Shown here: piece after piece, positions 19,101 to 21,826 of the stretch
Layout: each line of letters begins with the position of its first letter
How positions within the stretch are numbered: position 1 is the first letter of the stretch
Source of the DNA: Phoronis australis
Lineage: Eukaryota > Animalia > Phoronida
DNA: 64,000 nt
Assembly (NCBI GenBank): GCA_002633005.1
Contig: NMRA01000037.1
Location: 62,001-126,000, forward strand
Reading direction: 5' to 3'
Notes under the pieces: generated by a model
Databases searched by the model: none
Told to the model about the DNA's origin: nothing
What the model saw: only the letters and a program-made list of their open reading frames with translations
Translations under genes and position numbers: made by a program

Positions 19101-21826
19101 CAAAATTTCACCATTTTTAAGAAAGGTACATTCATACCAAAATAACCCCTCGGTCAATTTTAGTGAAACCTTTTTTAAATGAAAACTTCACCGGTTACTT
19201 CAAAAACGCTGTTAGGAATTTTCGATTAATAATCTTTTAGTTTGGTTTCTATGACATATGAAGTCGCAAAACGTCAGGTATTTTTGTAAAAAATAACAGT
19301 CGTATTAGGTACTTTGCCAGGCATTATGTGAAATATTGTCAAAATGGACAATTTTTGTGAATAAGGTTAATTTGAGAAATCTGTAAGACTATTGCCACTG
19401 GTTGAAAAGAACAATAATCTAAATATGCCAACTGTCACTTTCTAAAATCTTGTGTAACATACTTATCAGCAATCTGAGTATGAGTTCTCTTAATAAGCAA
19501 GCTTGGTTCTTCATAATTGCCATGATAGATGTACGTCACCAACATGTAACTATGCATGAGTATTCCCACATTTTCCAATGACTGTTCATTTGTCGAGAAT
19601 GTCAAGCATCTAACAAACCTTGTGCTCCACCTGTTGAGTACTTTAGCCATTCTGTATCATCAGAACCGAAGAAGTCGCCAACACAAAGTAACATCTGGAA
19701 ATACAAAACCAGGAATAAGCAACTAGTCATCGGTAGTCAAATAGATGGGTGTACGAATAAATCATGATTAGAAGTCAAGGTCTCTTTCCAAGAAACTGAC
19801 TTCAAAATAAATCGATAAATCTTGAAATGAGCTCTAAAAGTCATTGCCAATCATTCAAAGTGAACTCTCCTTACAAATACCATTGTGGCCAAAATTTTCT
19901 CTGGTAAGCTAAAACTTTTATCAATTTCTTTCCAACTCACATCAAACTGGCCACTCTTCTTTTGAATACTTTCTATTCTCTTGTACAGCTGGTCAAGACG
20001 GCCTTCAACATCACCACTCACCAATCTGCAATGAGTGATTTCAAAAGAAATAAACTAAGACAAGTTCCAATCATAGGCTGTTGAAGATCATCCAATTAAA
20101 CAGTACTAAGCATCACAGTTTGAAGGGCATTCTTCAATAGAACACCCGAGATAGCAAATTTTAAAGCAGGAAATGAATCACAATGAGCCACTGCCGAATT
20201 ATTCATGATTAAGCTAAATTAGCTTGATGAGAATTGTAATGACAAGTCTAAGGCTTCCAGACAAGAGACTTTAGAGGCAGAACAGGAGTGCCATAGTGGT
20301 GCTGTAGTAATAGCCGAGATTACCCGACCCGGGAATCGAACCAGCAACCCCCATAAAACCGGCAAGCGTGCTAACCATTCAGCTAATAGGCAATTGCCAG
20401 TTAGCGAGTAGCTAGCCTAACAGAGGCTCATATATGATTCACCGGGAGCACATCTACAACATTCCTCCCTTTCCTACGGAACAAGCACGCTACCAGGAAG
20501 GTGAACACCAGGATGTCTCACATACAGGTTATCAACGTCCCTTGGTACCTTTACCAACAGATCACAGGTGAACTGCTCGAAGAAAAAGTTTGATAACGGA
20601 AGTATTTGTTCGAGTTGGAAGGAATTAAACACATCGACAACCTCCTAAGGTGTTCCTCTATGCGCAAAAGGTATTTATAACAACATGACTTTGATGGCTT
20701 AGTCGGTGCGAGGCATAATTCGCCGAAAAGCTTCCGGCGTACAGAGCGCCTATAGGAGCTGCATCGCCTCTGGTTCGGGCCAACAGAGGCGATGGTCATT
20801 GCCTAGTTAACGAGTAGCTAACTGAACTAGTCGGATATAATGGACCCTAACTTATTCCAAATAAATCCACTAAATATAGGAATAAATGATTTTGGTATCG
20901 TTGCATTCCTCAGACATCTAGCTATCCGTACAAATCCTTTCCATGACCCTCAATTACTCAAGTCTATAACTATGCTATTCCGAACTCGGTCCACTTTAGC
21001 CACGCGCATCGTGAAATCGGCAGCCATTTCAGGGAACTTACTATATCTAGCGCCATCTATCGGCGATTTGCTACAACACGTGCTGTTCCTTTTTCATCAG
21101 TCAACGTCATTGGTCGATTTCGTCAATTATTAAGGTCATCGTTATTAATCATCGTACGTCTGCTCTCGTCATCACCTTTGTCGTCTCTCTCACTATCGTA
21201 TCTGTCATCGTCATGTTATCGTCGTCCATGTTGACTGATGAAAAAGGAACAACGCATGTTGTAGCAAATCGCCGATAGATGGCGCTAGATATAGTATGTT
21301 CCCTGAAATGGCTGCCGATTTAACGATGCGCGTGGCTTAAGTGGACCGAGTTCGGAATAGCATAGTTATAGACTAGAGTAATTGAGGGTCGTGAAAAGGA
21401 TTTGTTCAGATAGCCAGATGTCTGAGGAATGCAACGATACCAAAATCATTCATTTAGACCTATATTTAGTGGATTTATTTGGAATAACTTAGGGTCCATT
21501 ATATCCAACTAGTGCCAGCCTCGGCGAGGCTCATATATGATTCACCGGAAGCACATCTACAACAGTGCCCTTGATCCGTAAAACAGGAAGGAGTGTTGTG
21601 ACAAGTGCATGTGACATCCAGGTGTGGCGTAGAGTTGAATAAGGCCTCTCCAATTGCCGCTTCAACGATCGACTCTTACACGTTACCAGCGGCAGCGGCC
21701 CGGTAACATACTTCACTTCAATTCAATAGATCAATACCGAAAACCATGCAATGGCAATAAAAACCCTGTTCCTGCTGAATAAAGTCCTAAAAACATTGAC
21801 AGTTACTCTTACATCTTCAAACTCAT
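10173..21826 (-). CDS. CWF19L1: CWF19-like protein 1 (metallophosphoesterase-like N-terminus + CwfJ domains), 522 aa, 13 coding exons
   Basis: Exons 21813-21826, 19941-20025, 19619-19694, 18507-18608, 17037-17248, 15237-15437, 14538-14772, 14210-14289, 13921-14036, 13513-13606, 12708-12821, 11790-11887, 10173-10314 (1569 nt, phases consistent). Motifs [88 protein letters not shown]. Confidence 0.96.
13607..13920 (-). other. U12-type (minor spliceosome) GT-AG intron in CWF19L1
   Basis: Donor GTATCCTTT; branch-site-like TCCTTGAT (13616-13623) about 10 nt before the AG; no long pyrimidine tract. Confidence 0.85.
16202..16321. repeat. Imperfect inverted repeat, about 44-bp arms (probable small MITE)
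   Basis: aatcgatgtttcagtttattatccctaaaccattctcaagacaaa / tttgtcttgagaatgatttagtgaaaataaatcgaaacgtcgatt. Confidence 0.7.
16911..17036 (-). repeat. 6 x 21-nt minisatellite starting at the CWF19L1 exon 5 donor
   Basis: Unit GTAA(G/A)TGTAACAGCACC(T/C)C(A/T)T; reads in frame as [11 protein letters not shown] heptads. Confidence 0.95.
18928..19306 (+). mobile_element. DNA transposon fragment (Kolobok-like terminus AGGTTATCTCAAACC)
   Basis: About 380 bp homologous, in reverse orientation, to 32225-32570. Confidence 0.7.
20303..21564 (-). mobile_element. Non-autonomous LTR retroelement (TRIM-like) with a tRNA-derived LTR
   Basis: 3' LTR 20303-20461 (TGTTG...TACA); PPT AGGAAAGGGAGGAA 20462-20475; partial 5' LTR 20798-20820 + 21514-21564; GTGC on both flanks; A box TAGCTGAATGG 20375-20385; B box GGTTCGATTCC 20332-20342. 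Confidence 0.8.
20826..21513. mobile_element. 688-bp foldback element with about 280-bp inverted arms
   Basis: Arms 20826-21105 and 21230-21513 are near-perfect reverse complements starting ACTAGT(C/T)GGATATAATGGACC; spacer is TCGTCA-rich. Confidence 0.9.

What the first reader, a model, noticed from the sequence alone, without database searches (positions are those of the whole stretch)
20303..21564. Non-coding LTR retroelement with a tRNA-derived Pol III promoter inside its LTR
Seen (minus strand): a 159-bp TG...CA LTR directly preceded by a 14-nt polypurine tract; a second copy of its first about 70 nt at the other end; GTGC on both flanks; A and B boxes in a decayed tRNA body filling the 3' half of the LTR; about 335 bp internal region with no retroelement ORF and a perfect 11-bp stem (20762-20794). 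Known: plant Cassandra TRIMs carry 5S in their LTRs, and I recall tRNA-bearing Ajax elements described from molluscs and annelids. Inference: a Pol III-transcribed SINE/LTR hybrid mobilised by a Gypsy-type partner (4-bp TSD). The 5' repeat lacks the tRNA half and no PBS is visible, so this is either a deleted copy or an asymmetric architecture. Strongest candidate for an undescribed family here.
Basis: partly seen in the sequence, partly recalled or inferred. Interest (0 to 1): 0.8.

Follow-up and report, generated by a model that had tools for sequence, protein, structure and literature searches.

The report
Damaged Helenus-type mini LTR retrotransposon
This is a broken copy of a small, gene-less, multi-copy jumping element that carries tRNA-gene promoter boxes in its end repeats, a type described in 2024 as Helenus, and its lopsided look comes from two unrelated repeats that landed in one end, so it is likely a new family of a known kind rather than a new design.

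Summary
The listed features are real: a 159-bp TG...CA LTR, 14-nt PPT, 4-bp target duplication and boxes A/B. The odd shape is damage to this one copy. Its 5' LTR is split by a 688-bp foldback element. Its tRNA half and primer site are replaced by 233 bp of a very abundant Helitron-like repeat, which owns the 11-bp stem. That junction sits at about 1.7 times single-copy depth, against about 400 for the internal part and 1,500 for the LTR. Two sister contigs join the internal part to a second LTR at its tRNA end. Sequence beyond the LTR in sister copies matches a tRNA-Ser primer site. So the family is likely an ordinary symmetric TRIM of about 560 bp. tRNA-bearing TRIMs with 4-bp duplications are animal Helenus (Kojima 2024); Ajax is the 5S type. 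This family is not in that paper's data. The host is a non-mollusc lophotrochozoan. Pol III use is not shown. One by-eye lead: a palindrome just before box A recurs across fish, coelacanth, bivalve and nemertean Helenus, which hints at one origin. The scan noted Helenus-type TRIMs before in other genomes, not this sequence.

The parts
20299..20302 (.). Target-site duplication, downstream copy (GTGC on +)
   Evidence: depth drops to single copy left of 20300
20303..20461 (-). Complete 3' LTR, 159 bp, TG...CA
   Evidence: about 1,500 times single-copy depth at both ends; diverse flanks at both termini in sister contigs (73 loose ends at 20303, 31 at 20461 in X3)
20331..20342 (-). Box B of the tRNA-derived promoter
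   Evidence: fits GGTTC of Helenus
20355..20358 (-). T4 run inside the tRNA-like body, a possible weak Pol III stop (inferred)
   Evidence: only T4 in LTR or internal remnant
20375..20385 (-). Box A of the tRNA-derived promoter
   Evidence: fits TRGCY...YGG in part (TAGCT...TGG)
20389..20398 (-). 10-nt palindrome just upstream of box A; predicted to lie at the transcript 5' end
   Evidence: sequence; same layout by eye in many animal Helenus LTRs; fold of this copy not above shuffles, z -0.63
20402..20414 (-). Short 4-bp hairpin upstream of the palindrome
   Evidence: sequence; same layout by eye in Helenus-1_CGi, Helenus-1_LiLo, LTR-11_DR
20462..20475 (-). Polypurine tract, 14 nt, abutting the LTR
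   Evidence: last 8 letters shared with 11 places in the Helenus supplement, e.g. Helenus-2_CGi
20462..20573 (-). Surviving 112 bp of the internal region (includes PPT)
   Evidence: about 400 times single-copy depth; contigs carry 20302-20573 in one piece at other loci
20574..20806 (+). 3' end of an unrelated, very abundant Helitron-like repeat; hairpin 20762-20794, CTAG 20803-20806, then T
   Evidence: about 13,000 times single-copy depth; other copies go on past 20572 with different letters and several end at 20805-20811; second copy near 41485-41700; end pattern as in PMC4778049; 5' end not seen
20807..20825 (-). Second remnant of the 5' LTR (hairpin segment)
   Evidence: aligns to 20414..20400 of the 3' LTR with 1 mismatch in 15
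20826..21513 (.). 688-bp foldback / MITE-like DNA element inserted in the 5' LTR; arms 20826-21105 and 21230-21513; ACTAGT at both ends; superfamily not assigned
   Evidence: about 185 times single-copy depth
21514..21564 (-). First remnant of the 5' LTR (TG end)
   Evidence: 1 mismatch to the 3' LTR in the first 39 nt
21565..21568 (.). Target-site duplication, upstream copy (GTGC on +)
   Evidence: depth falls to near single copy right of 21581

Best explanation
This is a damaged copy of a multi-copy, non-coding LTR retrotransposon with tRNA-type boxes A and B in its LTR, likely a new family of animal Helenus that would be transcribed by RNA polymerase III and moved by a Gypsy helper. Shown: LTR, PPT, 4-bp duplication, high copy depth, sister contigs with a second LTR, and a one-off junction here. 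Inferred life cycle: Pol III starts about 10-20 nt upstream of box A in the 5' LTR (predicted near the position equal to 20399, at the palindrome), reads through primer site, internal part and PPT into the 3' LTR; a Gypsy particle packages the RNA, primes the first strand with host tRNA-Ser and the second with the PPT, and its integrase makes the 4-bp duplication. Inferred history of this copy: it inserted as a normal element of about 560 bp; about 226 bp (tRNA half of the 5' LTR, primer site, start of the internal part) were replaced by 233 bp of a Helitron-like repeat, either by insertion then deletion or by repair copying from that repeat; a foldback element also jumped into the 5' LTR. With no 5' promoter and no primer site this copy is likely dead.
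For: (X3): depth 49 on unique flank, about 74,000 at both LTR ends, about 20,000 internal, 83.5 past 20575 (ratios). Record 6 reads LTR part + internal 20387-20529, 175 other letters, then a whole LTR 20305-20463; a second contig goes from 20573 back to 20303: 2 of the 15 joints shown (20 in all). Loose ends past the LTR's CA end carry a common signal that matches the tRNA-Ser 3' end printed in PMC3299991 at 13 of 14 letters in X7 and 12 of 14 in X8 and 12 of 14 in X3 (both differences at CpG sites). X5 (organism B) holds a lone LTR whose 4-nt flanks agree at 3 of 4 letters (record 9). Kojima 2024 defines Helenus by these features and ties animal families to 4-bp duplications and Gypsy. LTR length, element length and LTR excess fall in the Helenus range. 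Helitron-type end: hairpin closing 12 nt before CTAG|T against 11 nt in Helraiser.
Against: No transcript start was seen: two RNA runs gave 550 and 522 family reads, on both strands, 82-83% running on into unlike flanks, with no place where many molecules begin. The primer-site signal comes from a mixed majority with only 0.42-0.47 agreement. Only 2 contigs show the two-LTR form, out of tables cut to a few rows. Depth peaks about 4-fold in 20360-20407, so other sequences share the palindrome and box A core. A T4 run about 35-40 nt after the predicted start could stop Pol III early. Depth is a sum over contigs and is not a copy number. No helper element was found (no genome held). Duplication length was read for only this copy and one lone LTR.
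Confidence: 0.88

Rival explanations
1. The tRNA part is an independent SINE that inserted into the LTR of an ordinary TRIM and still moves on its own.
For: Depth peak of about 6,000 times single copy at 20372-20383 against 1,500 at the LTR ends; Kojima proposes a SINE insertion as the birth of Helenus.
Against: Depth is equal at the TG end and at the CA end, with box B region included; contigs run through the whole LTR at other loci and in organism B; no SINE tail or inner duplication is seen; the peak covers the palindrome and box A only, which fits sister Helenus families.
Confidence: 0.06
2. The composite in the window is itself a mobile family with unequal LTRs, whose RNA starts with the hairpin repeat.
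For: The switch to foreign sequence falls close to the predicted start site; removed (about 226 bp) and inserted (233 bp) lengths are close.
Against: Depth past the junction is 83.5 against 49.2 for unique DNA; sister copies go on past 20573 with more internal sequence (29 and 44 RNA reads, agreement 0.88 and 0.81); the hairpin repeat is about 30 times deeper than the internal part and goes on differently elsewhere; standard reverse transcription makes both LTRs equal.
Confidence: 0.02
3. The family is a Helenus by structure, but the boxes no longer drive the copying RNA; it is made by Pol II read-through or a U3 promoter, and the boxes serve at most as TFIIIC sites.
For: RNA reads look like read-through on both strands with no start site; T4 inside the tRNA body; Pol III use is unproven for all Helenus.
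Against: Boxes A and B are intact while the cloverleaf is lost; the related Cassandra design is reported as Pol III-transcribed; ordinary RNA-seq libraries lose short non-polyadenylated RNA.
Confidence: 0.25

Closest known systems
Animal Helenus (TRIMp3), Kojima 2024, PMC10886601 (whole main text read; supplement parts 1, 5, 6, 7, 9, 10, 11 of 11 read, rest searched only)
   Same: Non-coding, two short TG...CA LTRs with tRNA-like boxes A and B, tRNA 3'-end primer site, PPT, 4-bp duplication, LTR excess over internal parts, size in the 311-1263 bp range. By eye the closest LTR layouts are Helenus-2/-3_PiNo, Helenus-1_CGi and Helenus-1_LiLo; the PPT end is as in Helenus-2_CGi.
   Different: Family not in the paper's data (0 hits for LTR start, palindrome or primer-site motif). 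Primer site is a tRNA-Ser type not among those listed in Fig. S2. Host is not a mollusc and not Lingula anatina. This copy is broken by two nested repeats.
Ajax (Kojima 2024)
   Same: TRIM with a small-RNA promoter in the LTR, lophotrochozoan host; both Ajax LTRs also show a short palindrome and T run before the promoter part (by eye).
   Different: Ajax carries 5S boxes, makes 5-bp duplications and uses tRNA-Leu; reported from two nemerteans only.
Cassandra (plant TRIM with 5S in LTRs; known here only through Kojima's text, original paper not read)
   Same: Pol III gene piece inside the LTR of a non-autonomous element.
   Different: 5S, not tRNA; plants; Pol III transcription validated there, not here.
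Non-autonomous Helitron 3' end (Helraiser, PMC4778049, passages read) for 20574-20806
   Same: GC-rich hairpin about 11-12 nt before a CTAG end followed by T; very high copy depth; stem kept with changed letters in other copies (loose ends).
   Different: 5' TC end and the A of the target are not present in this truncated piece; no RepHel partner seen; second window copy ends CTAA followed by A.

Membership tests
Helenus (animal) | Two LTRs with TG...CA ends | tested here: met
   3' LTR complete here; 2 sister contigs join internal sequence to a second LTR at its tRNA end. This copy itself has a broken 5' LTR.
Helenus (animal) | tRNA-like sequence in the LTR with box A (TRGCY, YGG) and box B (GGTTC) | tested here: met
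   cloverleaf not detected, as for most Helenus
Helenus (animal) | Primer-binding site complementary to a tRNA 3' end just after the 5' LTR | tested here: met
   Absent in this copy; present as a majority signal in sister copies, 12-13 of 14 letters to tRNA-Ser. Low agreement because flanks are mixed.
Helenus (animal) | PPT before the 3' LTR | tested here: met
   14 purines; linked to the LTR in sister contigs
Helenus (animal) | 4-bp target-site duplication | tested here: met
   4 of 4 here; 3 of 4 around one lone LTR in X5. Only 2 insertions read.
Helenus (animal) | Short (TRIM size) and non-coding | tested here: met
   About 559 bp estimated from one contig; three minus-strand frames full of stops. 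The missing 129 bp of internal sequence were not read.
Helenus (animal) | Multi-copy, with solo LTRs | tested here: met
   LTR depth about 3.8 times internal depth; diverse flanks at both LTR ends; lone LTR in X5
TRIMp3 | Transcription by RNA polymerase III from the LTR | tested here: inconclusive
   No start site in two RNA runs; libraries not suited
Helenus (animal) | Gypsy helper sharing the primer site | not testable with these tools
   No genome held; no such note in the scan
Ajax | 5S-derived boxes and 5-bp duplication | tested here: not met
   No 5S match in Rfam; duplication is 4 bp
Helitron (20574-20806) | Hairpin near a CTRR 3' end followed by T | tested here: met
Helitron (20574-20806) | 5' TC end, insertion between A and T without duplication | not testable with these tools
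   5' part is lost in this copy; full copies could not be fetched

The most novel reading that the evidence does not exclude
The hairpin and palindrome just before box A are an ancient, conserved working part (start-site element or RNA dimer signal at the 5' end of the Pol III RNA) shared by this family, fish, coelacanth, bivalve and nemertean Helenus and even Ajax. These would then be one old lineage of Pol III-driven LTR parasites spread over several phyla, not separate SINE captures as proposed.
Probability: 0.3. Interest if true: 0.5.

Novelty: new member of a known kind. Interest (0 to 1): 0.27.

Why it matters
As it stands it adds one abundant family, a new primer type and probably a new host to Helenus, and shows how nested repeats can fake an asymmetric design. 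If the shared palindrome holds up, it gives a marker to test single against multiple origins of animal Helenus and Ajax, and a predicted start site for the open question whether these elements are copied by Pol III.

Tried and rejected
No whole genome is held, so no genome-wide search. ARAGORN 0 genes in the window; Rfam gave only chance hits, which also ended an idea that the hairpin region is an HDV-like ribozyme. Collection scans: 0 matches in metagenome contigs for one LTR pattern; 2 matches for a second, both with no similarity beyond the 20-mer; 0 in viral contigs. Scan notes: no look-alike by sequence or place; none relevant in this genome. No RNA holder was listed. RNA reads of two runs show no start site and cannot speak to Pol III. 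Folds: tRNA-like part z 0.24, hairpin plus palindrome z -0.63, neither above shuffles. Host: Atlas not available; a short exon found no homologue; the tree is the quick version, and the host's place next to Lingula has only 88 support; summed BLAST scores in the same call rank molluscs first, so the phylum is left open. One comparison (12 mismatches in 15) is a one-letter register slip; the alignment is the valid one. Literature: 6 searches; none showed a follow-up on Helenus beyond mentions, nor the palindrome. Repbase and Dfam could not be searched, so the family may exist there under another name.

Full report
Observation. On the minus strand there is a 159-bp TG...CA repeat at 20461..20303, a 14-purine run directly before it and GTGC on both outer flanks (chance about 1 in 183). 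Boxes A and B lie at 20385..20375 and 20342..20331; the pattern occurs once in the window against 0.03 in shuffles, but I wrote it after seeing the sequence. No tool calls a tRNA, so only the promoter boxes survive. The 5' repeat differs from the 3' LTR at 1 of its first 39 letters.

A 688-bp foldback element (20826-21513; arms of 284 bp, 93% alike) sits inside the 5' repeat, which resumes at 20825..20807. The stretch 20574-20806 has a second copy in the window near 41485-41700 (79% over 143 bp).

Copy structure. No genome is held, so I laid sequencing data: 4 DNA runs (X1, X3, X4 are one sample of organism A, possibly the source; X5 is organism B) and X3, X5 with RNA runs X7, X8; 6 of the 9 runs listed. 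In X3, relative to unique flank, depth is about 1,500 at both LTR ends, 400 on the internal remnant, 13,000 on 20613-20783, 185 on the foldback and 1.7 just past the 20573 junction. The tool warns that these are sums over contigs, not copy numbers; I use them as rough ranks. Three separate repeats are therefore stacked here, and the junction that makes the element look lopsided is close to unique.

Sister copies. Contigs carry 20302-20573 in one piece at other loci. Of 15 joints shown (20 in all), 2 link internal sequence to a second LTR at its tRNA end; record 6 reads LTR part, 68 internal letters, 175 others, then a whole LTR, giving an internal part of about 241 bp and an element of about 559 bp. 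RNA reads go on past 20573 with more internal-like sequence (29 and 44 reads). Loose ends beyond the CA end have low agreement (0.42-0.47), as expected from mixed flanks, yet their majority matches the tRNA-Ser 3' end printed in PMC3299991 (passage read) at 13 of 14 (X7), 12 of 14 (X8) and 12 of 14 letters (X3, both differences at CpG), 2 nt after the LTR. X5 holds a lone LTR (9 other letters, 7 gaps) whose flanks agree at 3 of 4 letters.

The hairpin repeat. On the plus strand the 11-bp stem closes 12 nt before a CTAG end that is followed by T, as in Helraiser (11 nt; PMC4778049, passages read). Other copies keep a stem with changed letters and several stop at 20805-20811. I read it as a non-autonomous Helitron 3' end; the 5' end is lost, so this is likely, not shown. 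Both junctions have short shared letters (2 nt at 20572-20573; about 9 nt with one gap at 20798-20806), and about 226 bp were lost for 233 gained. Insertion followed by deletion and repair copying both fit; I cannot separate them.

Host. The 1846-aa frame at 49941-55481 has lophotrochozoan homologues, many with a bHLH domain; the best named hit is Lingula at 45%. A quick tree puts it outside the 36 rows that hold the molluscs (support 99) and loosely with Lingula (88). The phylum is open.

Mechanism. Shown: anatomy, high copy depth, two-LTR sisters, one-off damage. Inferred from the Helenus and Cassandra model: Pol III transcript from the 5' LTR, tRNA-Ser and PPT priming, Gypsy integrase. Against or open: RNA reads (550 of 12,751,647 and 522 of 11,308,521 records) lie on both strands, mostly run into unlike flanks and show no start site; 1 and 0 reads are 99% alike or better, so this copy is not visibly expressed. 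A T4 run at 20358..20355 could stop Pol III early.

Comparison. Kojima 2024 (PMC10886601; whole main text; supplement parts 1, 5, 6, 7, 9, 10, 11 read, parts 2, 3, 4, 8 only searched) names tRNA-bearing TRIMs Helenus, with 4-bp duplications in animals; Ajax is the 5S type. All structural criteria I could test are met at family level. Three motifs of this family have 0 hits in the supplement, so it is a new family there. A search for later papers found mentions only (listing; PMC12859917 passages). Repbase and Dfam were not available. The scan's notes list 67 findings with Helenus-type words in at least 19 genomes, the 8 shown from fungi and diatoms; none matches this sequence.

A lead. Before box A this LTR has a 4-bp hairpin and a 10-nt palindrome. 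By eye, with a loose criterion (8-12 self-complementary letters, G-T allowed, just before the T run of box A), I see such a palindrome with varying letters in 18 of 18 chordate, 33 of 51 bivalve, 3 of 3 nemertean, 0 of 3 Lingula and 0 of 1 ctenophore LTRs, and in 2 of 2 Ajax LTRs; wasp, fungal and plant families were not scored. The paper's text has no 'palindrom' or 'hairpin', I could not see its figures, and one search found nothing on it. This count was not run by script and has no control; the fold of this copy alone is not above shuffles. It suggests one origin for a large part of animal Helenus, against the multiple origins proposed, and predicts a start near 20399 rather than 20391.

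Verdict. New member of a known kind, seen in a damaged copy. Interest 0.27.

Noticed in passing
window 20574-20806 and about 41485-41700: Helitron-like repeat at about 13,000 times single-copy depth, far more abundant than the TRIM; other copies keep the terminal stem with changed letters. Family not identified.
   Followed up: partly
window 20826-21513: Foldback element with 284-bp arms and a 124-bp centre rich in GAC/GAT triplets; ends in a 6-letter palindrome, so the duplication length is ambiguous. Relatives also in organism B.
   Followed up: partly
window 20462-20573: Sequence that follows 20573 in sister copies resembles 20500-20530 of this copy, so the internal part likely holds a short tandem unit of about 65 bp.
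   Followed up: partly
window 21514-21528: The 5' LTR has a perfect small hairpin where the 3' LTR has an imperfect one, plus 15 extra letters beside the foldback insertion; may be template switching or a subfamily difference.
   Followed up: no
window 49941-55481: 1846-aa low-complexity open frame without Pfam hit; homologues carry a bHLH domain. Resembles the large last exon of USF3 (name recalled, not from a call).
   Followed up: partly
window 16905-17309 (-): Frame resembling a CWF19-like protein exon (recalled; one search found no homologue), ending in a 21-bp tandem repeat.
   Followed up: partly
window 47506-48517: A second, older foldback: arms of about 330 bp, 75% alike.
   Followed up: no
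window 3720-3942, 46901-47151, 57444-57680; 18927-19306 and 32225-32571; 22728-22849: Further dispersed repeats (three copies; two copies) and a perfect 61-bp tandem duplication.
   Followed up: no
PMC10886601 Data S1: Animal Helenus LTRs seem to fall into two types: palindrome plus T run before box A, or a full acceptor stem. Many also have T runs right after the tRNA part, which would stop Pol III before the primer site; how full-length RNA is made is not explained in the paper.
   Followed up: partly
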